Positions 17,924 through 64,000 of a stretch of 64,000 nt of DNA are shown here, piece by piece (position 1 is the stretch's first letter; the number at the start of each line of letters is the position of its first letter). Under the pieces are notes generated by a model. That model did no database searches and had not been told where the DNA came from. It saw nothing but the letters and a program-made list of their open reading frames with translations. Source of the DNA: an uncultured bacterium (GTDB lineage: Bacteria > Fermentibacterota > Fermentibacteria > Fermentibacterales > JCC-6); NCBI GenBank assembly GCA_964607515.1, contig CAZSKU010000003.1, forward strand, positions 7,154 through 71,153, given 5' to 3'. Position numbers and translations under genes: made by a program.

Positions 17924-17933
17924 TAACCCCCTC

Positions 17934-18743: not shown

Positions 18744-18759
18744 GTTGTCATCCCATCCT

Positions 18760-32396: not shown

Positions 32397-32699
32397 TTAA
32401 CAGGGTTCGACTATGAGAACCGGGTCGTCCGGATCGTAGGCCACAACCTTCGCTTCGGCGCCGGAAGCCAGCGGGGAGCCGGACCTGCACCACCAGAGTT
32501 CCCCCCTGATCTCCATCACCTGCCTCCCCCTGAAGCCCCGGGCTTTTCTGATGATCCCGCATTCCCCGACCATGCCGTCGTAGCCGGTCATTCTGGGGCC
32601 TTTCTGGGCCTTGAGACCCAGAAACAGAAGGAACACCAGTATAAGAAGGACGCATGCGGCGGTGATGATCAAGGCGATCTGGCTCATTCCACCCTCCAA
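32397..32699 (-). CDS. NfeD-family membrane protein (short form)
   Basis: N-terminal TM plus C-terminal OB-like beta domain. The canonical NfeD-stomatin pairing. Confidence 0.7.
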
Positions 32700-48024: not shown

Positions 48025-49547
48025 AGACCACCAGGCGCGCCGTATCCCCCTTCTTCGCCGCGGCCATATTCACCGCGGCCATAGCGGTACCCTCCGCCCC
48101 GGGCGCCGATTCACCTCCGCAGCTTCCCGTTATGCTGGCACTTTCCGCGGGCATTCTCATATCCGTGGTGTTCAACGGGTTTTCCACCTCCGGGACCCCG
48201 CTCTCGGTTTTCCCCTTCATGCTCACCGTTTCCGCGGTCCTTCAGCGCTCCCTCGCGGCGGGGCTGGTGTTCTCGACGGTGGCGGGAGTGGGTTCCCTGT
48301 TCCTGGAGTCCAGGCTCGGGCTGGAAAAATGGCAGGGAAGAAAGGGTTTGGCGGAGATGATCGCCTCGACTCTCCTGCTCTGCCGGATTCTCTCCCTGCT
48401 GGCGGGCATCGGGGAGGAAACGGTTCCGGGCCATTCCCTGGGTGCCGGGCTGGCGATCCTCCCGGTGCTCACAGGTCTGTCGGTGCTGGCCCTGCGGATT
48501 CTGCCGGCCCCCCCGGAACTCCGGACCGGCGGCGCCACAAGGCTTCTTTTCAACCTGCTGCCGATCCCGGTCGCCTTTCCGCTGCTGGAATACATGCCGG
48601 ACTACGGTTCCCTCCCGGTCCCTCTGGCCGGATCGGTGTTCCTGGTGGGGGTGGTTCAGGTCGGCACCTTCCTGCTCAGCTCCAGACGCCGGTCCCTGGA
48701 GAGAAGCATGGAAATGGAAAAGGCTCTGGCGGACCTGACTTCGGCCCTGTCCTCCGCCGGCAACCGGGCGGAGGTTCTTCGAATGGTGGCGGATGAACTG
48801 CTCCGGGGCAGCGGTGCCACCAGGGTTACCGTCACCCACGACAACCTTTCCGTATCACTGCCTGTACAGCCGTCGCCTCCGGGATGCAGCGTGAGCAGGG
48901 ACGTCCAGGGACTGAGAGCCGTGCTGGAGTTTCCGGTTATGCCCCTGGTCAGCCCGGAGAGGGTGGATGCATTCCTGACCAGAACCGGGGTGATGCTGCA
49001 GTGGATCACCGTGAGCGAGACCATCACCCGGGAGACATGGGAGAGCGTCGAGACCCTGGTGCTCTCTCTGGAGCGAACCGATGAGAAGGTGGCGGACTTC
49101 AGCAAGAGGGTTGCCCAGACGGTATCCGGCCTGGCTGAACACCTGGGTTTCGACAGCTGGACCGTTCATTCCCTGAGGATCGCTTCGCTGCTCCACTCCG
49201 GCTCAGGAGCCGTTTCGGGAAGCCTTGAAAGGGACGACTCCGAACCGGAATCCCCCGGTATCTCCCGGATCACCCTGGACGCCATGAAGTACCAGGGAGA
49301 GTGCTGGGACGGTTCGGGCGCCAGGGGGCTTCGGGGGGAGGACATTCCCATGGCCGCCAGAATACTGGCCGTGGGAATAGGCTGGGAAAAGGCTTTCACT
49401 GCCGGAGGCGTCAGGGAAGCTGAAAAGGCCATGAGAATAGGAAGCGGCCTGCTCTACGACCCTTCCCTGGCGCTGGCCCTGACCGAGTTGAAACGCCGGA
49501 CGGCCCCGGAGGAGCCGTCCGGCGTGTCCGTCAGTGGTCGATGGTGA
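48018..49547 (+). CDS. Membrane-anchored degenerate HD-GYP-like protein (catalytic HD and GYP residues not conserved)
   Basis: TM-rich N-terminus. C-terminus aligns with the preceding gene but reads 'HSLRIASLLHSGSGA' and 'CWDGSGARGL' where HD...DGSGYP is expected. ATGGTGA overlap with the upstream gene. Confidence 0.55.
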   Translation: MVKTTRRAVSPFFAAAIFTAAIAVPSAPGADSPPQLPVMLALSAGILISVVFNGFSTSGTPLSVFPFMLTVSAVLQRSLAAGLVFSTVAGVGSLFLESRLGLEKWQGRKGLAEMIASTLLLCRILSLLAGIGEETVPGHSLGAGLAILPVLTGLSVLALRILPAPPELRTGGATRLLFNLLPIPVAFPLLEYMPDYGSLPVPLAGSVFLVGVVQVGTFLLSSRRRSLERSMEMEKALADLTSALSSAGNRAEVLRMVADELLRGSGATRVTVTHDNLSVSLPVQPSPPGCSVSRDVQGLRAVLEFPVMPLVSPERVDAFLTRTGVMLQWITVSETITRETWESVETLVLSLERTDEKVADFSKRVAQTVSGLAEHLGFDSWTVHSLRIASLLHSGSGAVSGSLERDDSEPESPGISRITLDAMKYQGECWDGSGARGLRGEDIPMAARILAVGIGWEKAFTAGGVREAEKAMRIGSGLLYDPSLALALTELKRRTAPEEPSGVSVSGRW

Positions 49548-52077
49548 GCATTCCCTCGCTGTAGACCTCGAAACTCCCGTCCAGCGTCGGATCCGAAAGC
49601 ACGCCGTAGATGTAGTAGCTGCCCTCCGGCACCCCGCTGCAGTCCCACAGGTAGTCGCTGAGGTAGTCCGGGCACTGGATGTCGGACGATATGGGAACAA
49701 GTCCCCCCGAAGGATCGGTGTCGGTGTCGTAGTACAGGTCTACGGTTCGCCCGGAGGGCCCCACCGAATACCACTCCAGATTGTAGCTGTCGTCCGCGGT
49801 GGCCCCGGGGGGCGGCGGTGAGTAGAATGACATCCAGAGAGGTTCCCGGTCGATGGTCAGAGTGCCTTCGCTGTAGTCGGCAAGGGTCTGCTGGGGGTTT
49901 TCCAGCTTCGCGTAGATGTAGTAGACCCCCTCCGGGGTGGCGGAGCAGTCCCAGGAGTATTCGAACTCGTCCCACTGGATGCCCCCGGTTATGAAGGTCA
50001 TTCCGTTCCCTGGATCCGTGTCCACATCGTAGTAGAGGCTCACAGTGCCTCCGTAGGGAGTATCGGCTGCCCACTGGACGGTGTACTCGGTCTGGGCATA
50101 GGCCCCCCAGGGCGGCGGGGCGGTGACGATGATGTAGCTGTATTCGTGGGTGACCGAGAGGGTGCCGTCGCTGTAGTCAGCCGCGAAACCGTCCGATCCT
50201 GGATCGGGTCTTCCCAGGGAGGGATCGTATATCACCGCGTAGACGTACCAGTCGCCCTCGGGGACCATGCTGGTGTCCCACAGGTAGCTTCCGGTGTTGG
50301 GCAGCCCCTCGGCGATGGGGTACAGCTGGGAGGGGTTGTTGTCGCTGTCATAGTACAGGGCGATGGCACTGCCCGAACCGCCTGCCGCGGTCCACTGCAC
50401 GGCATAACTGCTGTCCGCGGAAGCTCCTTCCGCCGGAGGCGCTGTGACTGTGATGCTGTAGCCGGAGTGGTCAACCGTCAGGGTGCCCTCGCTCCAGGCG
50501 CTGCCGGAACCCTTCAGATCCCGTGGATTCCGCTGCCTGGTGTCGGTCACGAAACCGTAGATCCAGTACACACCTTCGGGAACGTCCGAGCAGTTCCAGT
50601 TGAACTGCCCCGAGTTCGGGGTGCCCGCCACGATGCTGTGCAGGGTTCCACCGGGCTGGTTGGTGGTGCTGTAGAAAAGATACACCCAGGTGGATCCATA
50701 GGGGGCGTCGGTGTCCCACTGCAGCAGGTACTCCTCGTCCGCCGAGGCTCCTTCCGGCGGTGGAGCGGTGAAGGTGAAGGTGTACTCCTGCCCGTGGACG
50801 ATGCTCACTGCGCCGGCGCTCCAGTCACTGCCCTGGCCGTCGCTCTCCAGGGCGGCGAACACGAACCAGTCGCCCTGGGGAACCATTGAGGTGTCCCAGA
50901 GGTGCTCCCCGGTGTTCTGCACCCCGGAGGCTACGGGATACAGGGGCGCTCCGGAAGTGTCCGCGGCGTAGAACAGCGACATCGTCGCTGAACTCGGTGC
51001 ATCGGACTCCCATTCGACCAGATAGCTTTCATCCGCCTGGGCCCCCTCCTCCGGAGGCGCCGTCACCGTGACGTAGAACTGGGTGTCGTGGGCGATGTTC
51101 AGGGTTCCCTGGCTGTAGTCCGAGGCCAGGATGCCCCGGCACGCTCCACCCACGGGGGCAGCTCCGCCCCGGGCCCCCTTGGCCGGGGACATGAGCGCGG
51201 CGTAGACGTAGTATGAGCCCTCCGGCACGTCGGAGCAGTCCCAGGTGTAGTAGCCGTCGTTGTACAGGTTCTGGGCGACAGGTTCGAGCCCTTCGGAGGG
51301 GTCGGTGTCAGTGTCGTACCAGAGGGTCACCGTGGCCCCGGAAGGAGCTTCGCTGAGCCACTCGACGGTGTAGTAGCTGTCGGCGGACTCCCCTCCGGCT
51401 GGTGGTTTCTCGACTGTAATCCAGGGATCCTCCCCGTGGTTGACGTACAGGGTTCCCAGGCTGTACCCAGAGGCGGTCTCCTCCCCGTCGGTTATCTCGG
51501 CCCGGACGAAGTAGAATCCGTCAGGGACCTGCGAGCAGTCCCATAGGTACTGCCCGGTATCTTCGAGCCCCGAAGCTATCTCCGTCAGCCCCTGGTCCGG
51601 AAGGGTGTCGGTGTCCATCCAAAGGGTCACCGTTCCCACCTGGAACCCGGAAGAAACCCACATAACCGTATACGATCCGTCCGCCATGGCGCCCTCGGCG
51701 GGAGGGGCGGTCACCGTTATTCCGGGCTGGCCCTGGCTGTGGTCCACCGTGAGGGTTCCGTCGGAGTAGTCCGAAACCGCCTCCATTCCGCTGGTGAGCA
51801 CGGCCCTGACGTAGTAGTCGCCGTTGGGGACGGCCGCCAGGTCCCATTCGAAGGCTCCGGACACCGGCCGGTCCCCGGATATAAACTGCTGCCCTGAGGG
51901 GCTCTGGACGGTGTTGTAGTAGAGAGCCACCGAACCGCTGCCCTGGCCTGTCCACTCCACGGTGTAGGAGTCCGAGGCGGAAGCTCCCTGGACCGGTGGC
52001 GCGGTGACCGTCACCGCGAGCCCTCCGGAGGGTCCCGAGGGGTCGTCCCCGCAGGAAAGCAGCAGAAGGAACAGCAT
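49531..52077 (-). CDS. Large surface lipoprotein (848 aa) built from eight ~100-aa tandem repeat domains
   Basis: Lipobox 'MLFLLLLSCGDD'. Eight repeats each carry 'VTAPP-EGA-AD-SY-V-W ... LYYD-D ... Y-WD-S-VP-G-YYVYA ... GTL'. The ORF's first 91 codons are rejected. Confidence 0.7.
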   Translation of the reverse strand: MLFLLLLSCGDDPSGPSGGLAVTVTAPPVQGASASDSYTVEWTGQGSGSVALYYNTVQSPSGQQFISGDRPVSGAFEWDLAAVPNGDYYVRAVLTSGMEAVSDYSDGTLTVDHSQGQPGITVTAPPAEGAMADGSYTVMWVSSGFQVGTVTLWMDTDTLPDQGLTEIASGLEDTGQYLWDCSQVPDGFYFVRAEITDGEETASGYSLGTLYVNHGEDPWITVEKPPAGGESADSYYTVEWLSEAPSGATVTLWYDTDTDPSEGLEPVAQNLYNDGYYTWDCSDVPEGSYYVYAALMSPAKGARGGAAPVGGACRGILASDYSQGTLNIAHDTQFYVTVTAPPEEGAQADESYLVEWESDAPSSATMSLFYAADTSGAPLYPVASGVQNTGEHLWDTSMVPQGDWFVFAALESDGQGSDWSAGAVSIVHGQEYTFTFTAPPPEGASADEEYLLQWDTDAPYGSTWVYLFYSTTNQPGGTLHSIVAGTPNSGQFNWNCSDVPEGVYWIYGFVTDTRQRNPRDLKGSGSAWSEGTLTVDHSGYSITVTAPPAEGASADSSYAVQWTAAGGSGSAIALYYDSDNNPSQLYPIAEGLPNTGSYLWDTSMVPEGDWYVYAVIYDPSLGRPDPGSDGFAADYSDGTLSVTHEYSYIIVTAPPPWGAYAQTEYTVQWAADTPYGGTVSLYYDVDTDPGNGMTFITGGIQWDEFEYSWDCSATPEGVYYIYAKLENPQQTLADYSEGTLTIDREPLWMSFYSPPPPGATADDSYNLEWYSVGPSGRTVDLYYDTDTDPSGGLVPISSDIQCPDYLSDYLWDCSGVPEGSYYIYGVLSDPTLDGSFEVYSEGMLTIDH
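49580..52030. repeat. Intragenic tandem repeat region (~300-nt period, eight copies, diverged at DNA level)
   Basis: The periodicity is seen in the translated protein. Codon-level divergence between copies argues for old, selected repeats rather than recent slippage. Confidence 0.6.
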
Positions 52078-52103
52078 GGAAACCGCAGCCGGCAGCCTTC
52101 GGA

Positions 52104-55004
52104 TCACCTCGACACCTCCCCGGACAGGTCGTGGAGAGGTATCACGACCGGGTTGTCGAACCTGGGCGTCGGAGGCCCACCCCCGGCGGCGGACGACGGG
52201 TCGCCGGCCCCCGGGACGAAGCCGCCGGGCGACACGCCGTTTATAGCGCCGTGGGTGATGTTGGACAACCAGGTATCCGAGCTGAAGAACCTGAGCCCGT
52301 CGATGTTCCATCCGCCTTCGGTGTTCGCGGAGTTGCTCAGCATGCGCCACCGGAAGATCACCTTCCTTCCGGCCCCGAACACCGGAAGGTTGTCAACCCG
52401 GTAACGGTAGTAGCCCCATCCCGAGGATATGCCGGAGGTGGTGAGCACCGGATGCCATGTTGAGGGGGCCACGTTGCCGAATTCCGCCACCTCCAGGTAT
52501 CCGTAGTCCTGGTCGGACTCGAAGCGGGGACAGGCGTAGAACTCGACGTAGGCGTAGGTGTCGTAGTTGTCCAGGGTGTAGTGCATGGGAGGGGTGATCA
52601 GAGCGTTGTGCTGGCTGTTCTCGTACCGGTAGTTCCACCAGCGGTCGGACCAGTACCCGCTGTACATGTCGTTCCCGGCCCAGTTCTGGCCGTCGGGGGT
52701 GGAAAGCGGGTCGTACGATCCGCCGGTTACCTTGGTGTAGGCCATCCAGTCGGCCATCTCGTAGACCTGCATGTTCCAGATTATCTGCGGCCAGTCGGCC
52801 CCGGGCCTGCTCCGGGTGTAGTCCACCTCCCAGCCGGTGTTTGACGAGTTGCCCACGGTGCCGTAGTTGAACCTCAGACGTACCTGCTTGCCGGCGTACT
52901 CGGTGATGTCTATGACCGAGAAGTTCCACATGGTGCCCGATGTGCTGCCGGTCCAGCCCGGCTCCATTTCCAGGGCCGGAACCGCCGCGGTGTAGTAGCC
53001 CCAGTAGGGAACGATGAGACGCCATGTTTCGCCGTTGTTCTCGGTTATCTTCACGTTGCATCCGTCCCCCTGGCTGCCGAAGCTGTACCTGTGGAAGAAA
53101 GCCACCGCCAGTCTCTGACCCTCGGCGTAGGATGACAGGTCAATCACGGGACTCTGCAGCCACGCCCTCGTCGGAGTCTGCTGATAGCTGCCGCTTCCTG
53201 CGGTGGCGTAGCACCAGCTGCCTGAGTAGGCGGCGTGGTTCGATGGAATCCATTCGTCGGTGGTGTAGCCTGGCCAGGGTCCGTGGGACCATCCGGCCAT
53301 GCCCCATCCCATCTCCTCGATAGCTATCTGGTCGCAGGCTATTCCCCTGACGGGCATCGGCTGGTCGCCCCTCTGGGCGAAGCCGATGAGGAACGAGTCG
53401 GTGAAGGGTATTCCGGCCTGCTGGGCGGCCTGGGTCAGGTCCACCGTGGCCTCGGTCCAGCCGGGAAAACTCTCCGGGGCTGCGAGGATCCTGTGACTCA
53501 TGTCCCAGTAGCCTTCGCTGCCGGTGGAGACCACCACGTTGTCTATGCTGATTCCTCCGTCGCCGGTGGGGGAGACGGTGCAACCGGTTCCCTGCTGGGC
53601 GAACACTATCCGGGTGTTGGCAAGATCGTAGCCCTCGGGGATCAGATCGGAAAGGTTGATAACCACCTGGGACCAGGACCCCGGGGGGTACGCCCCGGGA
53701 TTGAGAGCCACCTGGGCCAGCGGAGTGCTGTTGATCCCCCCGGGCCCCATGATTCCTACGAAATCGTTGGCGGTGGTGATGTCGCCCCGGTTGCACATGT
53801 CGAAGGTCAGGGCGATGTCCGAACCCGCATAGGCGGAGAGGTCCAGGGTCGCCATCACCCTGTTGGTGCCGGTGTAACCCTGCCGTCGAGTGTCGAGGTT
53901 CAGGTAGGGACCAGTGGCGGGGAACTCTTCGGTCACCTGAACCCTTCCGTAATCGTTGGTCCAGAAGGTCCAGCTCCTGGGAAAACCGTTCCGGAAACCG
54001 CTGAAGTCCTCGTTGAGCACCTCCACCTGGCTGTCGGGCACCCATACCGGAAGGAAGACGCCGTCCTCGTAGTCGAGAAGGTCGCTGAACTCCCTCCAGA
54101 AGAAATGGAGCCGCAGCTCATCGCTCCAGGTGTATTCCGACAGGTCCACCCGCCAGATGGCCATCTGGGTGCTGTACCCCTGCCGGTGGCAGTCCAGGGC
54201 CAGACAACTGGCTCCCTCAAAGGCCTCCGGATCGGTCCAGCGGCGGATCCTTCCGTAGCCGTCGTCCTCGATCCACAGCTGCCAGTCGGCGTTCCAGCTG
54301 ACCGGATCCTCGAAGTACTCGGTGATCACGGGAACCCACATGTCTCCGGCCTCCATGAAGTCCTGAAAGGCAAAGCTGCTGGCGACCTCGAAGCTCTCCT
54401 GGAAGACCGTGTTCTGGTAACGGGACCCGCCGTCTTCACCGTATGAGGCGAACAGGTCCCGGAGCATCGCCGGGTCGCCGGCGGCGGCCAGGTTGTACGG
54501 GGAGACGCTTCCGGAAACCTCCGCCCCGCCCGGGGAGGAGAGGGTGTAGTCGATGCGCCTCACCAGTGCCGGTTCCGCGACCCTGTTCCCCGAGGCATCG
54601 AAATAGTCGAAGACCAGCTCACCCGGAAAACCGGGATGGACTTCCCGGCCCGCGGCGTCGCGAACGGTGACCGTTCCTCCGGCGGACATCACGGTGATGG
54701 TGTCCTCGGGGCCGAAGGCTTCGGGGGCGTCCAGGTTGGCCACCACGGTAAGTCTGTGGTTTTCGGATGCCAGTACCGGGCACCAGACACCGGGAAACAC
54801 GTTGCCCATGTAGCCGGCGTTCGACAGGAGCACTTCCAGTCGGGCCGCGACCAGTCCGGCGTCCGCCTCCGCCGCCTGTCTGGCAGCGTTTTCAGTGGCC
54901 CGGCCGGTCCCCTGGATGAACAGGTACAATCCTGCCAGGACCACACCCAGAAGGACCATGGCCAGCAGCCCCTCCACCAGGGTGAATCCCTTCTTGGTTC
55001 TCAT
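52104..55004 (-). CDS. Giant (966 aa) type IV prepilin-signal protein: PilW-like minor pilin fused to adhesin-like C-terminal modules (MAM/choice-of-anchor-J-like)
   Basis: N-terminus 'MRTKKGFTLVEGLLAMVLLGVVLAGL' is a class III prepilin cleavage/methylation motif (G|FTLVE). The remaining ~900 aa are beta-rich, with 'GGWNIDGLRFF' near the C-terminus. Confidence 0.75.
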   Translation of the reverse strand: MRTKKGFTLVEGLLAMVLLGVVLAGLYLFIQGTGRATENAARQAAEADAGLVAARLEVLLSNAGYMGNVFPGVWCPVLASENHRLTVVANLDAPEAFGPEDTITVMSAGGTVTVRDAAGREVHPGFPGELVFDYFDASGNRVAEPALVRRIDYTLSSPGGAEVSGSVSPYNLAAAGDPAMLRDLFASYGEDGGSRYQNTVFQESFEVASSFAFQDFMEAGDMWVPVITEYFEDPVSWNADWQLWIEDDGYGRIRRWTDPEAFEGASCLALDCHRQGYSTQMAIWRVDLSEYTWSDELRLHFFWREFSDLLDYEDGVFLPVWVPDSQVEVLNEDFSGFRNGFPRSWTFWTNDYGRVQVTEEFPATGPYLNLDTRRQGYTGTNRVMATLDLSAYAGSDIALTFDMCNRGDITTANDFVGIMGPGGINSTPLAQVALNPGAYPPGSWSQVVINLSDLIPEGYDLANTRIVFAQQGTGCTVSPTGDGGISIDNVVVSTGSEGYWDMSHRILAAPESFPGWTEATVDLTQAAQQAGIPFTDSFLIGFAQRGDQPMPVRGIACDQIAIEEMGWGMAGWSHGPWPGYTTDEWIPSNHAAYSGSWCYATAGSGSYQQTPTRAWLQSPVIDLSSYAEGQRLAVAFFHRYSFGSQGDGCNVKITENNGETWRLIVPYWGYYTAAVPALEMEPGWTGSTSGTMWNFSVIDITEYAGKQVRLRFNYGTVGNSSNTGWEVDYTRSRPGADWPQIIWNMQVYEMADWMAYTKVTGGSYDPLSTPDGQNWAGNDMYSGYWSDRWWNYRYENSQHNALITPPMHYTLDNYDTYAYVEFYACPRFESDQDYGYLEVAEFGNVAPSTWHPVLTTSGISSGWGYYRYRVDNLPVFGAGRKVIFRWRMLSNSANTEGGWNIDGLRFFSSDTWLSNITHGAINGVSPGGFVPGAGDPSSAAGGGPPTPRFDNPVVIPLHDLSGEVSR

Positions 55005-55066
55005 TCTTCGCCGCCTTTCCAGGAAACAGTGATTGCCGATTCTATCATAATGTCATCCGATTCCCT

Positions 55067-56413: not shown

Positions 56414-56430
56414 AACCTTCACCGGAGCCT

Positions 56431-57936: not shown

Positions 57937-57944
57937 CTCCTGCC

Positions 57945-60900
57945 TCACTTTCCACCGGCGGTACGGCCGAAGAATTGAATGTTGTCCAGGTTCCAGCCGC
58001 CCCGGACTCCGAAGACGCCCGAGTCCAGAACGAACCTGATGTAGTAGCAGAGGTAGGAGGGGTGGTCGTTGAAGTGCTGGGTCAGGTTGATGGTCTCGTA
58101 CTGCCAGTTGTTGTCGTAGAAGCCGTTGTAGGTTCTCACGGTGATCCAGTCGCCCTCCGTCGGAATCTGTTCGGGGTCGGTGCCGAAGGCCAGCTGCACG
58201 TGAGCCAGGTCGTTGGTGGCCAGCCGGAGGCAGCGGAAGAACCTGACGCTCACCGTGTCGTAAACGGCCGCCTCCTCCATGGGGTAACCGCTTGAGGCGA
58301 ACCACGCCCAGGAGTTGTTGTTGTAGTAGCCGTCGGTGGTGAGGTCCGTCCCCGCGACCATGTTAAGGTTAGCGGGAAGCAGGGCCGGATCCACCGCCGG
58401 GAAGAACAGGGGCGCCCCGATCTCCCAGTCGTTTCCGGTGCCACCGGAGGTCCAGGTGACTCCGCTCCCCAGTTCCATGTCCTCGCCGGTGTAGATGGCC
58501 TCGCAGTCGCCGTAGTTGTAGAGGAAGGTCATGGGTACGTTCTGGCTGAACTGGGTGCCGTCGTCGTGGATCAACACGGTCTTGCCGCCGATATTGACCC
58601 GCAGCGCCGGTCTGGTGGTCATGAGGTTCAGAAAGGTGGGCGGCGAGGCCAGGCTCTGGGCCGACCTGCAGGCATTGGTGATCTCCCCGTGGACGAAGTT
58701 CCCGGAAGGACCCAGGGGGGGCTGCACCGTGCGCACCTTCACCACCAGGTTCATTCCCGCGGGAAGGAAGTAGCTTGGACTCACGGGGATGGTCTGCCAC
58801 TCCTCCAGGTTGTTCAGGGTGTACGGGCCGCTGTAGGCGTGGAACAGGCTTTCGGTGTTCAGCATGCCCCCGGAGGGGAAGCTGGTCAGGTCCGTGGCGC
58901 CCAGGTACACGTCCAGCTGCCCGAAGGTGTACTCGGGCACCCAGGTCTTCTTGAAGGCGATCTCCGTAATCTCGTAGCCGTTGATGGTGCATTCCGCAAG
59001 AAAGTCGTCAAGGTACCATCCGGTCTGGGTCACCCCGGCGTCGGAGAAGAACACGAACCGGAACCTGACGCTCTCCCCCTTGTAGGGGTCCAGGTCCACG
59101 TGCTCCATGAACCAGCCCCTGCTCCCGGAGAACACGCTGCGTCCGTTCACGGTGTGGCTGTACGCCAGGCCGCTCTCCGGGCCTAGGTCCGTCCATGGTC
59201 CCCCTGAAACGGACACCTGGACGTAGCCGTAGTCCACCCCGGTCTGCATGCTCAGGGCGTGTCTGAAGGACAGTTCTGGGTCCACCGCCTCCAGGGGCAC
59301 CGAGAACTCCGGCGTGGCGAGCCAGCAGTCGCTGTTGTTGCTGTAGGAGCCTGGATTGTTGGCGAAGAGCGACCACATGAAGTCCAGGGGGTTGGCGGGA
59401 TTCTGCCTGACGCTCCAGTCGTCCACCCCGCCGGGGAAGAAGCCATGGGACCAGCCGGGGATGGTGAGAATCTGTTCTATGATCCCCACCTCGAAGTCGT
59501 CCCAGCTTATCCCGTGGGTGTTCCAGGGGCCCGTTCCTGACTGGCTGAGTACCACTCCGAGAGAATCGTCGAACTCCATTCCGTGGTTCCTCAGGGCTGC
59601 GCTCAGGTCCAGGGCCAGGGTGTTCCAGTCCGGGCCGGCCGACGGAGTCCCTATCCGGGTGTATATGGTGTCGGAGGCTCCGGCTATCACAACCACGTTG
59701 TCCAGGCTTATCCCCCGGTTGCCCGTGAAGTCCGTGGCCCTGCCGTTGTCGTACTGGCCGAAGACGATGTACAGAGGGTTCGGTGGAGTGCCGGAAATGG
59801 AGAAAGTGGTCGAGCGTTCGTGCCACTGGTCGTCGCTGTAGGATTCGGGGGTAAGTTCAGCCGCCGGCGTGACCGGCCCCTCAATGACTCCTGTGGAGTT
59901 CCAGCCGATGAAGTCGCCGGATTCAGCCACCGGATCGTAGGGATGGTCGAGGTCACCGTGGTCGTGGAACCTGTAGTTCACGGTGAATTCTGTGTTGCTT
60001 CCCAGCCCGGTGGTTGGAACCTCTATCATCATCCGCACCCGGCCGTAGGTGTTGTCGGTCCTGCTGTCCAGGGTTGCGAATCCGCCGTCCCCCTGCCAGC
60101 CGTCGGGGCTGTGGATACGGCTTCTTCCGTAAAGGTCCCCCCAGAAGGTCACGTCGCCGGGCGCCAGGAACACCGAGTTGAAGTCCTCGGTGAGCAGGAC
60201 CTGGGGCGAGCCGGAGAGGTCGATGAAGAAAACGCCGTCGTTGAGGCCCACGGTCTCCAGGGAACCGGTCAGGGTGGCCACCTTCAGATAGATGTCGTCC
60301 ACCCAGGCGCTGTAGCCGGTCATGTCCATGAAGGTGCCGGCCACGTTCCTGGTCTCCGCTCCGAAGTCGAGCCTCTGCATCCTCAGGGTTTCATCCACTA
60401 CCGATACGCTGCCCATGGGGCCCAGAGGCATCATGGTCCAGGCGAGCGCCTTGGCGGCGAAATCGTCGGAGTGGATGGGAATCGAGTCGGGCATGATCTG
60501 GGGGTTGTTCAGATCGTCCTCCCACAGGACAACGTTGGTGGACTGCCCGCTCTCTCCCTCGAAGTTCTCCTCCGCTGTTATGGGATCCCCCGGAGTGCCG
60601 CCGCCGCCGCTCCCTCCCAGGGCCCAGTAGAGTACGTTGTAGAAGAAGTCGAGCCCGTCGCTGGAGTAGGTGTTGGCGGAAGGCAGCCCGTAGAGCACCC
60701 GACGGACCGGCAGGAACTCGTCCCTCACGCACACCAGCGCCGGCACGTCTCCGGGAATACTGTCTATTGAGGTGATGTTGGTGGTTTCCAGGGACAGGTC
60801 CAGCAGGTAGTTCATCACCCCTGGAGCCGGGAACATCTCGAAGGTGTCGGCGTCGGGCTGGGCCGATGGAATCTCATAGGGGAACTTGTGTATCTGATGG

Positions 60901-61889
60901 TCGTGCACGACCTTGAAACAGGTCTCGTAAAGGGATGAGGTCATTGGGGTAAGCCCCATGGAGAAGACCAGGGACGCGTCGTCCGGATCCAGGCAGATGA
61001 CCGGGCAGGGGATCGCCTGAAGGGCGCCGCTCATTCCGGAGTGATAGAGAGAGCCGCCGCTGGTGATATCCCTGAGGATCACCAGGTCAATCTCGTTGCT
61101 GACGTAATCGTAGGTGGGCAGGGCATCGTCCGCCAGGGGAATGACCTTCAGCCCCCAGTACTCCATAAGAAGGATCATGGTGTACTCGCCCGGGGTCGGG
61201 GTGAGGGAGTCGGGCTGTCCCGCCACGTTCATCACCACGTTGCCCTCCAGGGGAGGCGGCGGAATGAACGACGGGTCTATGTCCCTGTATACCCCCAGGT
61301 TTCTGGGGCTGATGGTGGTTCGAACCGAGGTCTGGTAAACGTTGCCCATGTAGGTGTCCTGAAGCACCAGCCTCACCCGGATGTGCCTCACCGCGTCACG
61401 GTCCTGCAGGCTCAGGGGCTGGGTGAAGACGTTGCCCGTCTCGCTCAGGTACTCGAACTGAAGGCTGATGATGTTGTGCCCCAGACGGCGCTGCATGGAG
61501 CCGTTGTCGGTTATGTACACGAAGCCGTCCGTTCCCAGCAGCACGTTCCGGTGTTCGTCGTCATCCACCTGTCCCCAGGGAGCCTCGTAATCTGCGTAGA
61601 ACGAGAAGCTTCCCGGTTCGGTGGTCTCAACCGGGTGCCAGAGGTCTCCGTCTATCCCTCCGTGGGGCAGATAACCGGCCCATATAACCTCGTCGGCAAT
61701 CTGCTCCAGGGCGAGCCTTCCGGCGGTGGCCAGCTCGTTCTGCCTCCGGCTGAAGTGGAACTGCTGCATTCCCTTGGTGAAGAAGAGGAAAACCGCGGCG
61801 AAAATCACCCCGAGGACGCCGATCACTATCGCCAGCTCCACCAGGGACATTCCCCGAAGCCGGCGGTTGCCTGATTCACTGAGCCTCAT
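57945..61889 (-). CDS. Giant (1314 aa) type IV prepilin-signal protein: PilW-like minor pilin fused to repeated MAM/choice-of-anchor-J-like beta-sandwich modules
   Basis: 'MRLSESGNRRLRGMSLVELAIVIGVLGVIFAAVFLFF' prepilin motif (G|MSLVE). Downstream modules end in 'GISLDNVVV', 'TGWYLDDFLAEC' and 'GGWNLDNIQFFG'. Confidence 0.75.
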   Translation of the reverse strand: MRLSESGNRRLRGMSLVELAIVIGVLGVIFAAVFLFFTKGMQQFHFSRRQNELATAGRLALEQIADEVIWAGYLPHGGIDGDLWHPVETTEPGSFSFYADYEAPWGQVDDDEHRNVLLGTDGFVYITDNGSMQRRLGHNIISLQFEYLSETGNVFTQPLSLQDRDAVRHIRVRLVLQDTYMGNVYQTSVRTTISPRNLGVYRDIDPSFIPPPPLEGNVVMNVAGQPDSLTPTPGEYTMILLMEYWGLKVIPLADDALPTYDYVSNEIDLVILRDITSGGSLYHSGMSGALQAIPCPVICLDPDDASLVFSMGLTPMTSSLYETCFKVVHDHQIHKFPYEIPSAQPDADTFEMFPAPGVMNYLLDLSLETTNITSIDSIPGDVPALVCVRDEFLPVRRVLYGLPSANTYSSDGLDFFYNVLYWALGGSGGGGTPGDPITAEENFEGESGQSTNVVLWEDDLNNPQIMPDSIPIHSDDFAAKALAWTMMPLGPMGSVSVVDETLRMQRLDFGAETRNVAGTFMDMTGYSAWVDDIYLKVATLTGSLETVGLNDGVFFIDLSGSPQVLLTEDFNSVFLAPGDVTFWGDLYGRSRIHSPDGWQGDGGFATLDSRTDNTYGRVRMMIEVPTTGLGSNTEFTVNYRFHDHGDLDHPYDPVAESGDFIGWNSTGVIEGPVTPAAELTPESYSDDQWHERSTTFSISGTPPNPLYIVFGQYDNGRATDFTGNRGISLDNVVVIAGASDTIYTRIGTPSAGPDWNTLALDLSAALRNHGMEFDDSLGVVLSQSGTGPWNTHGISWDDFEVGIIEQILTIPGWSHGFFPGGVDDWSVRQNPANPLDFMWSLFANNPGSYSNNSDCWLATPEFSVPLEAVDPELSFRHALSMQTGVDYGYVQVSVSGGPWTDLGPESGLAYSHTVNGRSVFSGSRGWFMEHVDLDPYKGESVRFRFVFFSDAGVTQTGWYLDDFLAECTINGYEITEIAFKKTWVPEYTFGQLDVYLGATDLTSFPSGGMLNTESLFHAYSGPYTLNNLEEWQTIPVSPSYFLPAGMNLVVKVRTVQPPLGPSGNFVHGEITNACRSAQSLASPPTFLNLMTTRPALRVNIGGKTVLIHDDGTQFSQNVPMTFLYNYGDCEAIYTGEDMELGSGVTWTSGGTGNDWEIGAPLFFPAVDPALLPANLNMVAGTDLTTDGYYNNNSWAWFASSGYPMEEAAVYDTVSVRFFRCLRLATNDLAHVQLAFGTDPEQIPTEGDWITVRTYNGFYDNNWQYETINLTQHFNDHPSYLCYYIRFVLDSGVFGVRGGWNLDNIQFFGRTAGGK

Positions 61890-61903
61890 CGTCTTCACCC
61901 CCC

Positions 61904-62272
61904 TTAGAACAGGATGCTGAGGCTGGTGGAATCGGCCCCTTCGGGGCCGTTCCAGGTGACCCGGCATCTGACGAGTTTCGCCGCCGGGTACTCCGAATAG
62001 GGTGTGGAGATGACCACGACCCTCTCGAAACCCTCCGGAAGCACCTCCAGCGGGCCGGCGCCGTCGGGCATGGAAGCCACGTCCAGGGTGCGCATCTCCT
62101 CGAGCTTCTCCCGGCAGTACTGAAGCCCCTTGGTCATGAGATCCATCTCGTTCGAGCTTCTGACGATGTGGAAGAAGAACACCGCGATTCCCGCCACGAT
62201 GATGGCCAGCAGAATGGACGCGATGACCACTTCCATAAGGGTGAAACCGCCGCTGCCGCGGATTCTGTTCAT
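61904..62272 (-). CDS. PilV/GspI-like minor (pseudo)pilin
   Basis: 'GSGGFTLMEVVIASILLAIIVAGI' prepilin motif, ~120 aa. Confidence 0.7.
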   Translation of the reverse strand: MNRIRGSGGFTLMEVVIASILLAIIVAGIAVFFFHIVRSSNEMDLMTKGLQYCREKLEEMRTLDVASMPDGAGPLEVLPEGFERVVVISTPYSEYPAAKLVRCRVTWNGPEGADSTSLSILF

Positions 62273-62640
62273 GGACAGGCCTCCTGACTTCTAACGCTGA
62301 ACTCCCTTGACAACTCCACAGAAATAGAATCTCCCCTGAAAACCCTGACCGAAAGGAGCCGGGTGTGGTCGCCGGTCCAGATCAGGGATGTTCTGACTCC
62401 GTATCCACGGCCCATGATGGTATCCTCCCTCTGGGCCGTGAAGGGTTCCGGAAGGGGCTGCATGGCCTGGATCTCCTGCGCCTCCAGGGTCGCCAGGGTG
62501 AGAGCGTCGGAGCGCATCTCCAGATTCCTGCTTCCCCGGAAGAAATAGCGCAGCGCCATGGCCAGCACGCCCAGCACGAGCACCATCACCAGGCCCGCCA
62601 CCACCACCTCCACCAGGGTGAATCCCCTCCTCTTCATCAT
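62269..62640 (-). CDS. FimU/GspH-like minor (pseudo)pilin
   Basis: 'MMKRRGFTLVEVVVAGLVMVLVLGVLA' prepilin motif, ~125 aa. Confidence 0.7.
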   Translation of the reverse strand: MMKRRGFTLVEVVVAGLVMVLVLGVLAMALRYFFRGSRNLEMRSDALTLATLEAQEIQAMQPLPEPFTAQREDTIMGRGYGVRTSLIWTGDHTRLLSVRVFRGDSISVELSREFSVRSQEACP

Positions 62641-64000
62641 CTGCCGGGCCTTTCCCGCTGGGCGAACACCCTCCATTCGCCGGGTCCGTCGAAGATCAGC
62701 AGAGTGTACACCCCCGATCTGACGATCCTCTCGCCGGTGCTCCTGGAGTTGACGGTCTGGGCGAGACCGTCGCCGGACAGCGGGTTGAACACCGCCAGGA
62801 ACTCCCCGGGGGAAGCGGAGAAAAGGTCCACGTCAGCTCCGTCACCGTCGCCCCAGGTGTACGGGCCGTTCTCCAGCAGGACGGTGGAGTATCCTCCGCC
62901 GGCTGCAAGCAGCGCCCGGCCTTCCGATACTCCCGCCACTCCTGACACGCTTCCGTAGAAGGCCCCCTCCCATGGCAGGGAAAGGGCGCCGGCGGGTGTG
63001 AACTCGCCGAATCCGTCGTGGTTGAGCCTCGTCCACAGAGTAACGCCTCCCGGCAGTATCCATCGGCCGCCCAGACCCAGGCTGCCCTCCACGGAACCCC
63101 AGGCGCAGAGAAACGCGTCCGGAGAGGGAGACCCCCGGTACAGACCCGAGGAGGTGAGACAGACCAGCGACCGGGGACCGGCCCAGGCGATGTCTTCCCG
63201 GCCGTCCCTGTTAAAGTCGCCGAAGAAGGCATCGTTGACGGGGGGGGCAAGGGTGAAGGAGCTGGGAGCCCCCGGTTCCCCGAAGACCCTGCCCGAAGGG
63301 GTGACCAGGGGACAGGTGCCCGGAGGGGATATGAGCCTTCCGGTTGCTCCTTCGGAAAGATCCACCAGAGTTCCGAGGTTGTGACCGTCGCTCACCGCCA
63401 GCAGGGGCTCCCCGGGGTCGCCCCCGAAGGTTATCACCGAACCGGGACCGACCCGGCCGAGCCCGGTCTCCACCGTCCGGACGACACCCTCCCGGTTTAC
63501 CACCAGCACGCTGCACGATTCCCCCGTACCAAAGACGAGCACCGCCCCGTCGGCTCCCTGCCACTGGGCACGGCACGCGCCGGTCAATTCCCTTTCTATT
63601 CCCAGCCGGAAGCTCCCTATGCGCTCCCCTGAGGCTCCGGAGAAAACCGTCACGGTATGCCCGTCATCGGGGGTGACGGCGAAAATGGATTCCCCGGAGG
63701 GAACCAGGACCGGCGCCGATTCGCCTCCCACGGGAAATCCCGCGGTGCGGGGAGGCGCTGGCTCCGAACCGCCCACCGTAAGGGTGGTGGTTACGCCCCC
63801 CAGCTGGAAGCACCTGACGGCGCCCCGTTCCAGGGGACCGCCCATGGAAACCTCCAGCATCAGAGCGTCCAGGGCTCCCTCCTCGGTGAGCCCCATCTGG
63901 ACTTCCTCCTCCCGGCGGAGCTGGTCCGAGACCATCCGGTCCAGCATGAAGAACAGGATCCCCACCGCCATCATGACGATCATGGCCGCGGCCACCGCTA
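62637..64000 (-). CDS. Membrane protein with FG-GAP/VCBS-like repeat, first gene of the pilin-like operon; start at 63995 (ORF-track first ATG), 5' extension beyond the window edge not excluded
   Basis: Hydrophobic N-terminal segment 'MAAAMIVMMAVGILFFML'. 'FFGDFNRDGREDIAW' is an FG-GAP-like motif. Beta-propeller-like Gly-rich body. The ORF-track first ATG is at 63995; an upstream start beyond the window edge cannot be excluded. Confidence 0.45.
   Translation of the reverse strand, partial: AVAAAMIVMMAVGILFFMLDRMVSDQLRREEEVQMGLTEEGALDALMLEVSMGGPLERGAVRCFQLGGVTTTLTVGGSEPAPPRTAGFPVGGESAPVLVPSGESIFAVTPDDGHTVTVFSGASGERIGSFRLGIERELTGACRAQWQGADGAVLVFGTGESCSVLVVNREGVVRTVETGLGRVGPGSVITFGGDPGEPLLAVSDGHNLGTLVDLSEGATGRLISPPGTCPLVTPSGRVFGEPGAPSSFTLAPPVNDAFFGDFNRDGREDIAWAGPRSLVCLTSSGLYRGSPSPDAFLCAWGSVEGSLGLGGRWILPGGVTLWTRLNHDGFGEFTPAGALSLPWEGAFYGSVSGVAGVSEGRALLAAGGGYSTVLLENGPYTWGDGDGADVDLFSASPGEFLAVFNPLSGDGLAQTVNSRSTGERIVRSGVYTLLIFDGPGEWRVFAQRERPGR

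What the first reader, a model, noticed from the sequence alone, without database searches (positions are those of the whole stretch)
49531..64000. Minor-pilin-like operon in which giant prepilin-adhesin fusion proteins take the place of PilY1
Eight co-directional, tightly packed genes on the minus strand reproduce the fimU-pilV-pilW-pilX-pilY1 logic of type IV pilus minor-pilin/tip-priming operons.

- **Gene order:** an FG-GAP membrane protein, then a FimU/GspH-like pseudopilin, then a PilV/GspI-like pseudopilin. These are followed by a 1314-aa protein, a PilX-like protein (501 aa) and a second PilX-like protein (449 aa). The operon ends with a 966-aa protein and an 848-aa repeat lipoprotein.
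- **The twist:** the two giant proteins themselves begin with canonical class III prepilin cleavage/methylation motifs (G|MSLVE, G|FTLVE). A globular PilY1-type protein would normally sit there. They carry ~900-1200 aa of beta-rich adhesin-like modules ending in W-x-[IL]-D-[DGN] signatures that I associate with MAM/choice-of-anchor-J-type beta sandwiches.
- **Implication:** the adhesin would be built into the pilus tip as a pilin subunit rather than docked onto it.
- **Missing components:** no major pilin, PilB/C/D/M-Q or secretin is in the window. pilT sits about 20 kb away.

The composition (giant pilin fusions, two PilX paralogs, a repeat lipoprotein) is, to my knowledge, not a described system.
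Basis: partly seen in the sequence, partly recalled or inferred. Interest (0 to 1): 0.85.

Follow-up and report, generated by a model that had tools for sequence, protein, structure and literature searches.

The report
Fermentibacteria pilus-tip operon with giant pilins
This is a type IV pilus "minor pilin" operon shared across the uncultured phylum Fermentibacterota, in which pilin subunits carry very large sugar-binding-like modules; it is an unusually large example of the known "modular pilin" design, not a new kind of system.

Summary
The eight co-directional genes are real (gaps -4 to 62 nt). 28 of 29 Fermentibacterota genomes with enough flank keep the core g1, g3, g4, g5 and g6 in order.

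- **Canonical prepilins:** four products have Gly-1/Glu+5 signals: two small pilins (g2, g3) and two giants (g4, 1314 aa; g7, 966 aa). The signal is conserved wherever the leader is called.
- **Giant pilin g7:** its model shows a pilin helix and sheet, then about five MAM/CBM-like jelly-rolls.
- **g5/g6:** paralogs of a wider PilX_N + DUF4900 family, which weakly matches Thermus ComZ.
- **The "FG-GAP membrane protein" (g1):** it is a 60-residue pilin-like helix fused to a beta-propeller.
- **g7 and the lipoprotein g8:** an accessory pair, present after g6 in 9 of 30 loci.

The giants are pilin-adhesin fusions, and no PilY1 family hit was seen in the five loci checked. But modular pilins and their parallel with PilY1 were published in 2021. 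g4 sits in the PilW/GspJ position. PilY1's plug role could equally fall to g5/g6 or to g1.

Verdict: a new variant of a known kind, of moderate interest. Assembly, cleavage and ligands are all inferred.

The parts
62637..64000 (-). g1: 475-aa protein whose first ~23 aa lie beyond the window end. N-terminus SRG|AAILLAVAAAM... resembles PilX_N/GspK (Gly-1, no Glu+5). A 60-residue helix is followed by a beta-propeller with weak FG-GAP motifs.
62269..62640 (-). g2: small minor pilin of 123 aa, MMKRRG|FTLVE. Weakly GspI/XpsI-like.
   Evidence: N_methyl E 8e-4; XpsI E 8.7e-6, below its cut-off. A profile of orthologues gives T2SS GspI chains 5bw0_B and 5vtm_V as the top PDB hits, at E ~0.1. The motif is degenerate in the L011/L012 lineage.
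61904..62272 (-). g3: small minor pilin of 122 aa, GG|FTLME. Weakly PilV/GspI-like.
   Evidence: N_methyl 22.0 bits against a cut-off of 21.2; TIGR02532 18.5 against 16.3; PilV TIGR02523 E 4.6e-5, below its cut-off. The motif is invariant in orthologues.
57945..61889 (-). g4: giant modular pilin of 1314 aa. LRG|MSLVE leader; pilin module (~1-200); conserved unassigned domain (~215-445); jelly-roll modules (~446-848); choice-of-anchor J/MAM domain (~850-965); further C-terminal beta modules ending in GGWNLDN.
   Evidence: Pfam and NCBIfam hits. Paralogy with g7 in the N-terminal, central and C-terminal regions. Leader conserved in the family. N-terminal profile hits type IV pilins in PDB, and N_methyl matches 7 of 7 members. 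Aegiribacteria forms lack ~446-848. The family is found only in Fermentibacterota.
56431..57936 (-). g5: 501-aa PilX/GspK/ComZ-type protein. SRG|SALALV leader (Gly-1, no Glu+5), a TAEAG motif, and a GPxxANG... body that looks like a solenoid.
   Evidence: Paralogue of g6, 29% identity over the full length, E 1e-35. Gly-1 is invariant. Distant relatives carry PilX_N + DUF4900. The broad family profile hits ComZ 6qvi at E 1.8e-4. The Fermentibacteria-only profile does not.
55067..56413 (-). g6: 448-aa second PilX/GspK/ComZ-type paralogue.
   Evidence: Weak GspK N-terminal hit (E 0.028) and weak DUF4900 hit (E 0.004). Present in every core locus.
52104..55004 (-). g7: giant modular pilin of 966 aa, an accessory gene. 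KKG|FTLVE leader, pilin module, about five jelly-roll/MAM/CBM-like modules, and a disordered C-terminal tail ending in a conserved motif.
   Evidence: N_methyl 28.8 bits; TIGR02532 19.0. G6, T8, L9 and E11 are invariant in 21 homologues. AF2 gives helix 9-60, a sheet at 77-167, then beta modules; mean pLDDT 65.7. Foldseek hits reelin repeats, meprin/enteropeptidase/neuropilin MAM, and CBM11/CBM22.
49531..52107 (-). g8: lipoprotein with eight Kre9_KNH Ig-like repeats. 848 aa from the ATG at 52077, or more likely 858 aa from the GTG at 52107. Always paired with g7.
   Evidence: Kre9_KNH E 1e-25. Repeat anchors. Start-codon context. The g7-g8 pair stands alone in GCA_002900505.1.
32684..33793 (-). 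pilT: PilT/PilU-family type IVa pilus retraction ATPase. Not part of the operon; it shows that the genome has type IVa pilus machinery.
   Evidence: TIGR01420 439.6 bits against a cut-off of 319.1. Housekeeping gene neighbourhood.

Best explanation
This is the Fermentibacterota version of a type IV pilus minor-pilin operon, encoding the priming or tip complex.

Shown:
- Seven of the eight products begin with a pilin-type hydrophobic N-terminus.
- Four are canonical prepilins with Gly-1/Glu+5.
- The giants are modular pilins: a pilin module with jelly-roll, MAM or CBM-like modules grafted onto it.
- g5 and g6 belong to a widespread PilX_N + DUF4900 family.
- g1 is a pilin-like helix fused to a beta-propeller.
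- The genome encodes PilT.

Inferred:
- A prepilin peptidase encoded elsewhere cleaves the leaders.
- The small pilins g2 and g3, the giant g4 (in the PilW/GspJ position) and a PilX-type subunit (g5 and/or g6) assemble through their N-terminal helices into the complex that primes pilus polymerisation and stays at the tip.
- The bulky modules of g4, and of g7 where present, project from the tip as built-in adhesins. The likely ligands are glycans or partner-cell surfaces.
- No separate PilY1 is needed. Its capping role is taken by the bulky PilX-type subunits and/or by the g1 propeller.
- g7 and g8 are an optional add-on adhesin module.
For: - Gene packing and content.
- Class III motif conserved across the phylum in g2, g3, g4 and g7.
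- N-terminal module profile hits solved type IV pilins, and N_methyl matches 7 of 7 members (best E 1.6e-8).
- The g7 model shows a pilin helix and sheet, then jelly-rolls matching MAM and CBM structures.
- g4 passes the choice-of-anchor J and MAM cut-offs.
- g4 and g7 are paralogous, and so are g5 and g6.
- The g5/g6 family contains PilX_N + DUF4900 members and weakly matches ComZ.
- g1 fold.
- PilT in the window.
- Core synteny in 28 of 29 loci across Fermentibacter, Sabulitectum and Aegiribacteria.
- No PilY1 family hit in the Pfam lists of five loci.
- Literature precedents: modular pilins at pilus tips (PMC8179133); ComZ as a tip pilin (PMC6561018); beta-solenoid PilX proposed to replace PilY1 (10.64898/2026.02.12.705559); type IV pilus genes reported in Hyd24-12 genomes (PMC5030696).
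Against: - No major pilin, PilB/C/D/M-Q or secretin could be shown here for this genome. Only PilT is in the window, and a paper states that pilus genes exist.
- Cleavage, assembly, tip location and ligands are all untested.
- The pilin-subtype assignments are weak. All GspI, PilV and GspK hits are below the curated cut-offs, and PilX_N is not detected in g5 or g6 themselves.
- The ComZ link is indirect, because the Fermentibacteria-only profile misses it.
- No structure of g5 or g6 was predicted, so the solenoid is inferred from sequence pattern and family.
- Up to five bulky subunits (g1, g4, g5, g6, g7) are hard to fit on one pilus tip. Alternative tips, or non-tip roles for some, are likely.
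- The g7 model has only moderate confidence (pLDDT 65.7, pTM 0.43).
Confidence: 0.6

Rival explanations
1. The two giant prepilin fusions are the direct substitutes for PilY1. They occupy its slot and perform its adhesin and tip role, while the rest of the operon is an ordinary FimU-PilV-PilW-PilX set.
For: - No PilY1 family hit in the operon or in the five annotated loci.
- The giants carry adhesin-like modules on a pilin module.
- g7 sits after the PilX-like genes, where pilY1 would be.
- The published analogy between modular pilins and PilY1.
Against: - g4 lies before the PilX-like genes, in the PilW/GspJ position. No other PilW/GspJ candidate exists, so g4 more likely IS the PilW-position subunit with extra modules.
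- g7 is missing from about two thirds of loci, so it cannot be an essential PilY1 substitute.
- g1 (propeller) and g5/g6 (ComZ-type) are equally good or better candidates for the PilY1 plug role.
- g2 is not FimU/GspH-like.
Confidence: 0.2
2. A competence (DNA-uptake) pilus tip set. The operon primes a short pilus that captures DNA, as ComZ-PilA2 do in Thermus and the Com minor-pilin set does in cyanobacteria.
For: - dprA lies immediately upstream and co-directional in 22 of 37 loci. RecJ and a helicase lie further upstream in L013.
- The g5/g6 family weakly matches the DNA receptor ComZ.
- Cyanobacteria use a dedicated beta-solenoid PilX set for competence.
Against: - dprA is absent next to the operon in all Aegiribacteria-type loci and in some others. 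dprA is also widespread in bacteria not known to be transformable (general knowledge).
- MAM/CBM-like jelly-roll arrays suggest protein or glycan ligands more than DNA.
- No ComEA, ComEC or ComF is in the window.
- The ComZ match is weak and covers the pilin part, not the DNA-binding region.
Confidence: 0.15
3. A pseudopilus of a type II secretion-like or polysaccharide-secretion (Hps-like) type IV filament, which does not form a surface pilus. The bulky subunits act as a piston tip or as substrate adaptors.
For: - The best, though weak, hits of g2 and g6 are to T2SS GspI and GspK.
- The ComZ pilin domain is closest to GspK.
- Weak HpsC hits for g2 and g3.
Against: - No GspC-F, L, M or secretin genes lie near the operon in any of about 30 genomes. 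This was judged from Pfam lists for five loci and from tblastn synteny for the rest.
- PilT, which is specific to retractile type IVa pili, is present.
- A subunit of 1,300 aa would have to sit in the periplasm and pass a secretin, which is hard to reconcile with a short pseudopilus.
- All the T2SS hits are far below the curated cut-offs.
Confidence: 0.1
4. Not pilins at all. The N-termini are ordinary signal anchors or Sec signals, and the products are membrane-anchored or secreted surface proteins that happen to be clustered.
For: - g1, g5 and g6 lack Glu+5, and g1 lacks Gly-1 in one lineage.
- g2 loses the motif in the L011 lineage.
- The solenoid-like body of g5/g6 also occurs with a Sec signal and a T9SS-type C-terminal tail.
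Against: - Gly-1, Phe/Met+1 and Glu+5 are kept in g3, g4 and g7 across sequences that are otherwise only 35-45% identical.
- N_methyl and TIGR02532 are above threshold for g3 and g7.
- A long helix plus sheet, the pilin fold, is predicted for g7.
- Seven pilin-like N-termini in one operon is the hallmark of minor-pilin sets.
Confidence: 0.05

Closest known systems
Type IVa pilus core minor-pilin/PilY1 operon (Pseudomonas aeruginosa fimU-pilV-pilW-pilX-pilY1-pilE; Myxococcus xanthus minor-pilin/PilY1 clusters)
   Same: A tight operon of several prepilin-type genes. Small GspI/PilV-like pilins come first, then a larger pilin in the PilW position, then PilX/GspK-type proteins without Glu+5. It lies apart from the machinery genes, and PilT is present in the genome.
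   Different: - No PilY1 family protein.
- No recognisable FimU/GspH or PilE.
- The PilW-position subunit is 830-1314 aa with grafted modules.
- There are two PilX-type paralogues, each of about 450-500 aa.
- The first gene is a pilin-like helix fused to a beta-propeller.
- An optional second giant pilin comes with a repeat lipoprotein.
Modular pilins (Streptococcus sanguinis PilB with vWA and PilC with a lectin module; ETEC CofB; Raynaud et al. 2021, PMC8179133)
   Same: A class III signal peptide and pilin module are followed by non-pilin, ligand-binding-type modules. These pilins are predicted to be exposed at the tip, and the source paper draws the explicit analogy with PilY1.
   Different: - Much larger: 966 and 1314 aa, against about 450-520 aa for PilB, PilC and CofB. 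The most extreme case that paper highlights is 860 aa.
- The modules are arrays of MAM/choice-of-anchor J/CBM-like jelly-rolls, plus an unassigned ~230-aa domain.
- The host is a diderm of the FCB superphylum.
- No function has been tested.
ComZ of Thermus thermophilus and the beta-solenoid PilX proteins of cyanobacteria (PMC6561018; bioRxiv 10.64898/2026.02.12.705559)
   Same: g5 and g6 have a GspK/PilX-type N-terminus without Glu+5 and a large body. They belong to a family whose joint profile matches ComZ. These lineages also lack PilY1, and the bulky PilX has been proposed as the tip plug. Two PilX paralogues occur in cyanobacteria as well.
   Different: - The match is weak and indirect (E 1.8e-4, and only with the broad profile).
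- No structure was obtained here.
- Both paralogues sit in one operon. In cyanobacteria they belong to two separate minor-pilin sets.
- DNA binding is untested.
PilY1/PilC tip adhesin (C-terminal beta-propeller, IPR008707/PF05567)
   Same: g1 has a beta-propeller with DxDxDG-like motifs and is encoded in a minor-pilin operon. The giants have variable adhesive modules on a carrier, as the PilY1 N-terminal regions do.
   Different: - No sequence similarity of g1 to PF05567.
- The structural matches are to generic propellers only.
- g1 is anchored by a pilin-like helix where PilY1 is a Sec-exported soluble protein.
- g1 is the first gene in the operon, not the fifth.
Type II secretion pseudopilus tip GspH-I-J-K
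   Same: g2 gives weak GspI-like hits and g6 gives a weak GspK N-terminal hit. The logic is the same: small pilins plus a bulky cap without Glu+5.
   Different: - No T2SS machinery nearby.
- The subunits are far larger.
- PilT is present.

Membership tests
Type IV pilin / prepilin (class III signal peptide; PF07963 N_methyl, TIGR02532) | Short basic leader ending in Gly-1, then Phe/Met+1, a hydrophobic stretch and Glu+5 | tested here: met
   The g2, g3, g4 and g7 leaders are shown. HMM hits are: g3 and g7 are above the cut-offs, g2 and g4 just below. 7 of 7 N-terminal modules match N_methyl. The motif is invariant across the families. It is not met by g1, g5 or g6, which have no Glu+5, as in GspK and PilX.
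Type IV pilin / prepilin (class III signal peptide; PF07963 N_methyl, TIGR02532) | About 50-residue N-terminal alpha-helix packed on an antiparallel beta-sheet (the pilin fold) | tested here: met
   The g7 AF2 model has helix 9-60 followed by strands 77-167, at moderate confidence. The g4 N-terminal module aligns with that of g7. The profile hits solved pilins only over the helix. g4, g2 and g3 were not modelled.
Type IV pilin / prepilin (class III signal peptide; PF07963 N_methyl, TIGR02532) | Cleavage and N-methylation by a prepilin peptidase, and incorporation into a filament | not testable with these tools
   No PilD is in the window, and whole genomes could not be scanned. This needs proteomics or biochemistry.
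Modular pilin (Raynaud et al. 2021) | An N-terminal pilin module followed by one or more domains not specific to pilus biology | tested here: met
   g4 has choice-of-anchor J at 38.9 bits (cut-off 30) and InhA-like MAM at 34.4 bits (cut-off 26.9). The g7 jelly-roll modules match MAM, CBM and reelin structures.
PilX / GspK / ComZ-type tip pilin | PilX_N-type N-terminus (Gly-1, no Glu+5, AEAG motif) | tested here: inconclusive
   PF14341 does not hit g5 or g6 at E<=0.1, and the GspK N-terminal hit on g6 is only E 0.028. The motif is visible by eye, and Gly-1 is invariant. Relatives found with the g5+g6 profile do carry PilX_N: P0143 at 33.6 bits and P0127 at 26.1, against a cut-off of 25.5.
PilX / GspK / ComZ-type tip pilin | Pilin fold with a large inserted domain (a beta-solenoid in ComZ) | tested here: inconclusive
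   The broad family profile hits ComZ 6qvi at E 1.8e-4, over the pilin part and the start of the solenoid. The Fermentibacteria-only profile does not.
PilY1/PilC (PF05567 / IPR008707) | Sequence membership of the PilY1 C-terminal beta-propeller family | tested here: not met
   No hit for any of the eight proteins at E<=0.1. None for the 18 g1 homologues at E<=10. None in the precomputed Pfam lists of loci L001, L007, L011, L012 and L013.
PilY1/PilC (PF05567 / IPR008707) | Beta-propeller fold | tested here: met
Type IVa pilus minor-pilin operon (fimU-pilVWXY1E type) | Four core minor pilins of the GspH/FimU, GspI/PilV, GspJ/PilW and GspK/PilX types encoded together | tested here: inconclusive
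   GspI/PilV-like genes (g2, g3) and GspK/PilX-like genes (g5, g6) have weak support. PilW/GspJ is assigned to g4 by position only. No FimU/GspH candidate was identified.
MAM / choice-of-anchor J domain | Score above the curated cut-off of NF038128 or PF20773 | tested here: met
   Met for g4. g7 is below both cut-offs (25.2 against 26.9, and 19.4 against 30), but its model matches MAM domains 5l73 and 4gwm.
Kre9_KNH Ig-like repeat lipoprotein (g8) | PF10342 above its cut-off, and a lipobox | tested here: met
   90.7 bits against a cut-off of 24.6, in four scored stretches. Eight repeat anchors and LLLLS|C. Lipidation itself was not tested.

The most novel reading that the evidence does not exclude
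Fermentibacterota may build a PilY1-free pilus tip organelle in which every bulky function is carried by a subunit with its own pilin-type helix. The functions would be a beta-propeller (g1), an adhesin array of up to 1,300 aa (g4, with or without g7), and two solenoid-type caps (g5, g6). In this reading g1 is a PilY1-like propeller turned into a pilin-like subunit, either by convergence or as a relic. The two PilX paralogues would define two alternative tips on one machine.
Probability: 0.2. Interest if true: 0.7.

Novelty: new variant of a known kind. Interest (0 to 1): 0.5.

Why it matters
- **Scale of pilin fusions:** these pilins would be larger than the modular pilins highlighted in the 2021 survey. 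Five or more jelly-roll/MAM/CBM-type modules would ride on one pilin helix.
- **Conservation:** the design would be fixed across a whole uncultured phylum that is abundant in anaerobic digesters and anoxic sediments.
- **Testable physiology:** it gives a concrete idea of how these non-flagellated fermenters attach to polysaccharide particles or to syntrophic partners.
- **PilY1-free pili:** it adds a third lineage, after Thermus and cyanobacteria, in which PilY1 is absent and bulky PilX-type subunits are present.
- **A new architecture:** the pilin-like helix fused to a beta-propeller (g1) has, to my knowledge, not been described. It bears on how PilY1-type tip proteins are attached to pili.

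Tried and rejected
- **Exact look-up of g1:** it failed because the window truncates the gene. Looking up g7 instead solved this.
- **AlphaFold database fold search:** the library was not available.
- **Locus search with the g5/g6 alignments:** The g4 alignment was used instead.
- **The conserved g4 domain (~215-445):** no PDB or Pfam match was found.
- **Direct ComZ link:** the Fermentibacteria-only g5/g6 profile does not hit ComZ.
- **Pilin subtype of the g4/g7 N-terminal module:** only the helix matches known pilins. The PilW/GspJ label rests on position alone.
- **Promoter and terminator scan of the operon:** the counts equal those from shuffled sequence, so it is uninformative.
- **Supplementary tables:** those of the Hyd24-12 genome paper and of the modular-pilin survey are not held as text.
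- **Pilus machinery elsewhere in the genome:** PilB, C, D, M-Q and a major pilin could not be looked for with the tools available.
- **tRNA scan:** no tRNA gene in the window.

Full report
**1. What is there**

The stretch 49531-64000 is filled by eight minus-strand ORFs. Identical contigs from public assemblies carry the same genes, called as 475, 123, 122, 1314, 501, 448, 966 and 848 aa. dprA lies upstream and two convergent HD-domain genes lie downstream. I call the genes g1 to g8, in the direction of transcription.

- **Packing.** Gaps between g2 and g8 are -4, 14, 8, 14, 62 and 26 nt. g1 and g2 overlap by 4 nt.
- **g1 is cut by the window end.** About 23 residues are missing.
- **g8 start.** g8 probably starts at the GTG at 52107. 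This overlaps the g7 stop as GTGA and is preceded by GGAGG. It gives a proper lipoprotein signal, MIRRLPAAVSMLFLLLLS|C.
- **Promoters and terminators.** A consensus scan finds nothing beyond what shuffled sequence gives.

**2. Organism and conservation**

Named homologues of g4 are all from Candidatus Fermentibacteria, formerly Hyd24-12.

- Of the 5.8 billion sequence clusters searched, g7 has 22 full-length relatives and g4 has 35.
- In one genome per GTDB species, g4 relatives occur in about 60 loci. All are from Fermentibacter, Sabulitectum, Aegiribacteria and unnamed Fermentibacterales. A few weak hits elsewhere cover only the C-terminal domain.
- A tblastn synteny tally gives these counts:

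| Feature | Loci with the feature | Loci with enough flank |
|---|---|---|
| g1, g3, g4, g5, g6 in order | 28 | 29 |
| g7 following g6 | 9 | 30 |
| dprA upstream | 22 | 37 |

- In one genome the g7-g8 pair stands alone, far from the other genes.
- The core is therefore g1-g6, and g7-g8 is an accessory pair.
- Aegiribacteria-type g4 is about 830 aa and lacks residues ~446-848.

**3. The pilin signals**

- **HMM hits.** N_methyl/TIGR02532 hit g2, g3, g4 and g7. The hits on g3 and g7 are above the curated cut-offs.
- **Leaders.** They are RRG|FTLVE, GG|FTLME, LRG|MSLVE and KKG|FTLVE.
- **Conservation in g7.** G6, T8, L9 and E11 are invariant in 21 sequences that are down to 44% identical.
- **Conservation in g4.** E18 is invariant, and G|M[ST]L[VI]E is present wherever the gene call includes the leader.
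- **Across the phylum.** A motif scan of 13 loci finds the same motif in the orthologues and no further pilin gene within 10 kb.
- **N-terminal modules.** The first ~195 residues of g4 and the first ~175 of g7 align with each other. All 7 members match N_methyl, with a best E of 1.6e-8. As a profile they hit solved type IV pilins such as geopilin, PilA, MshA, TcpA and GspG, but only over the helix.

**4. The giants**

- **g7 model.** The AF2 model was built from a 21-sequence alignment, with mean pLDDT 65.7 and pTM 0.43. It shows a helix at 9-60, a sheet at 77-167, about five beta-sandwich modules, and a disordered tail.
- **g7 fold matches.** Foldseek against PDB matches reelin repeats, the MAM domains of enteropeptidase, meprin and neuropilin, and CBM11/CBM22.
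- **g4 domains.** g4 passes the curated cut-offs for choice-of-anchor J and InhA-like MAM at residues ~850-965.
- **Paralogy.** g4 is paralogous to g7 in the N-terminal, central (27% identity over 459 aa, E 2e-28) and C-terminal parts.
- **Unassigned domain.** g4 residues ~215-445 are conserved in all orthologues but match no family or solved chain.

These are modular pilins in the sense of Raynaud et al. 2021. That paper reports more than 1,200 such proteins in 264 architectures. It highlights an 860-residue extreme case and draws the parallel with PilY1 explicitly (PMC8179133).

**5. The PilX-like pair**

- g5 and g6 are paralogues, 29% identical over their full length. Both have an invariant Gly-1, no Glu+5 and a TAEAG motif.
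- Pfam's PilX_N model does not hit them directly.
- A profile of g5+g6 was searched against 1.84 billion representative proteins. It finds 208 relatives. Distant full-length ones carry PilX_N and DUF4900, with the same GPVHSNG and PPxFP motifs.
- The joint family profile hits Thermus ComZ (6qvi) at E 1.8e-4. The Fermentibacteria-only profile does not, so the link is indirect.
- ComZ is a GspK-like pilin with an inserted beta-solenoid, and it is proposed to cap the competence pilus (PMC6561018).
- A 2026 preprint shows that cyanobacterial PilX proteins share this design. It proposes that the solenoid replaces the PilY1 plug in a phylum without PilY1.

**6. The first gene**

- g1 is more than an FG-GAP membrane protein. 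Its full N-terminus, SRG|AAILLAVAAAM..., is PilX_N-like in most homologues.
- The AF2 model is confident (pLDDT 86.3, pTM 0.72). It has a 60-residue helix followed by an all-beta domain.
- FG-GAP motifs are weakly detected in 17 of 18 homologues, and PF05567 (PilY1) is detected in none.
- The PilY1 C-terminal domain is also a beta-propeller (general knowledge; IPR008707). g1 is thus a candidate analogue, but homology is not shown.

**7. The small pilins**

- g2 gives XpsI/GspI as its best hit (E 8.7e-6). An orthologue profile puts GspI chains at the top of the PDB list, at E ~0.1.
- g3 gives PilV (E 4.6e-5).
- All of these are below the curated cut-offs, and no FimU/GspH-like protein is evident.

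**8. Context**

- pilT at 32684-33793 is a bona fide PilT/PilU-family ATPase.
- No other pilus gene is in the window.
- The original Hyd24-12 genome paper reports type IV pilus genes and no flagella (PMC5030696).
- I could not verify PilB, C, D, M-Q or a major pilin for this genome.

**9. Interpretation**

- **Best reading (confidence 0.6).** This is a phylum-specific minor-pilin, tip or priming operon of a type IVa pilus. g2, g3, g4 and a PilX-type subunit assemble by their helices. The g4 modules, and the g7 modules where present, are displayed as built-in adhesins. The capping role of the absent PilY1 falls to g5/g6 and/or g1.
- **What is shown.** The motifs, the folds of g1 and g7, the paralogies, the family links and the synteny.
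- **What is inferred.** Cleavage, assembly, tip location and ligands.
- **An open problem.** Up to five bulky subunits must fit on one tip, which suggests alternative tips.
- **Rivals.**
  - A competence pilus, suggested by the dprA adjacency and the ComZ-type link: 0.15.
  - A T2SS- or Hps-like pseudopilus: 0.1.
  - Not pilins at all: 0.05.

**10. Novelty**

The building principles are all published: modular pilins, bulky PilX in place of PilY1, and minor-pilin operons. Four things appear to be new:

- the size and module type of the pilin fusions;
- the fusion of a pilin-like helix to a beta-propeller;
- the pairing of two ComZ-type paralogues in one operon;
- the phylum-wide conservation in Fermentibacterota.

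No paper on this phylum in the searchable library describes the operon. This is a new variant of a known kind, of moderate interest.

Noticed in passing
L001:1-818 (just beyond window base 64000); also L007, L013 and others: dprA (TIGR00732, 247.9 bits for the L013 copy) lies immediately upstream of g1 and is co-directional. This holds in 22 of 37 loci with enough flank, but in no Aegiribacteria-type locus. RecJ and a helicase lie further upstream in L013.
   Followed up: partly
window 46441-49547 (+), and 9720-11699 (+): Two tandem HD_5/HD-domain genes converge on the operon, and the 3' end of the last one overlaps g8 by 17 nt. They are a conserved neighbour in most Fermentibacteraceae and Sabulitectum loci. 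A third gene, PAS-HD_5, lies at 9720-11699. These could be cyclic-nucleotide signalling genes; any link to the pilus is untested.
   Followed up: no
window 60555-61247 (-), g4 residues ~215-445: A conserved domain is present in all g4 orthologues, including the short Aegiribacteria forms. It matches no Pfam family and no PDB sequence. The sequence pattern looks alpha/beta.
   Followed up: partly
window 52107-52250 (-), g7 residues 919-966: The AF2 model leaves the g7 C-terminal tail disordered, yet the tail ends in a motif conserved in all 21 homologues (P956, E963). It could be a docking peptide, for example for the always co-occurring lipoprotein g8.
   Followed up: no
proteins P0091-P0103, sequences: A family of ~420-455-aa proteins matches only residues ~147-483 of g5/g6 (E ~1e-59). 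They have a Sec-type signal, and their C-terminal tail looks like a T9SS sorting domain. The same solenoid-like body therefore seems to be exported by a second route.
   Followed up: partly
L011:1835-2173 and L012 (g2 orthologue): In this lineage the g2 orthologue has lost the G|FTLVE motif (MSDSLKSTFFRVFGG...). g3 and g4 in the same loci keep it.
   Followed up: no
window 52077-52107 (-): The public gene call starts g8 at the ATG at 52077, which leaves the signal MLFLLLLSC with no charged n-region. The GTG at 52107 overlaps the g7 stop as GTGA, has a GGAGG upstream, and gives MIRRLPAAVSMLFLLLLSC. Orthologous loci also show a 4-nt g7/g8 overlap.
   Followed up: yes
window 15846-20574 (-): Four consecutive genes encode PPIase-domain proteins, one of them SurA-like. 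They lie next to ftsE/ftsX-like genes at 14029-15590.
   Followed up: no
window 4-1014 (+): A sigma-54 activator (Sigma54_activat + HTH_8) is cut by the window start. PilR-type regulators belong to this class, but nothing links this gene to the operon.
   Followed up: no
L069:16787-19220: In one uncultured genome g6 is followed by a 211-aa ORF and a 560-aa g8-like repeat protein (33% identity), with no g7. This is an exception to the g7-g8 pairing.
   Followed up: no
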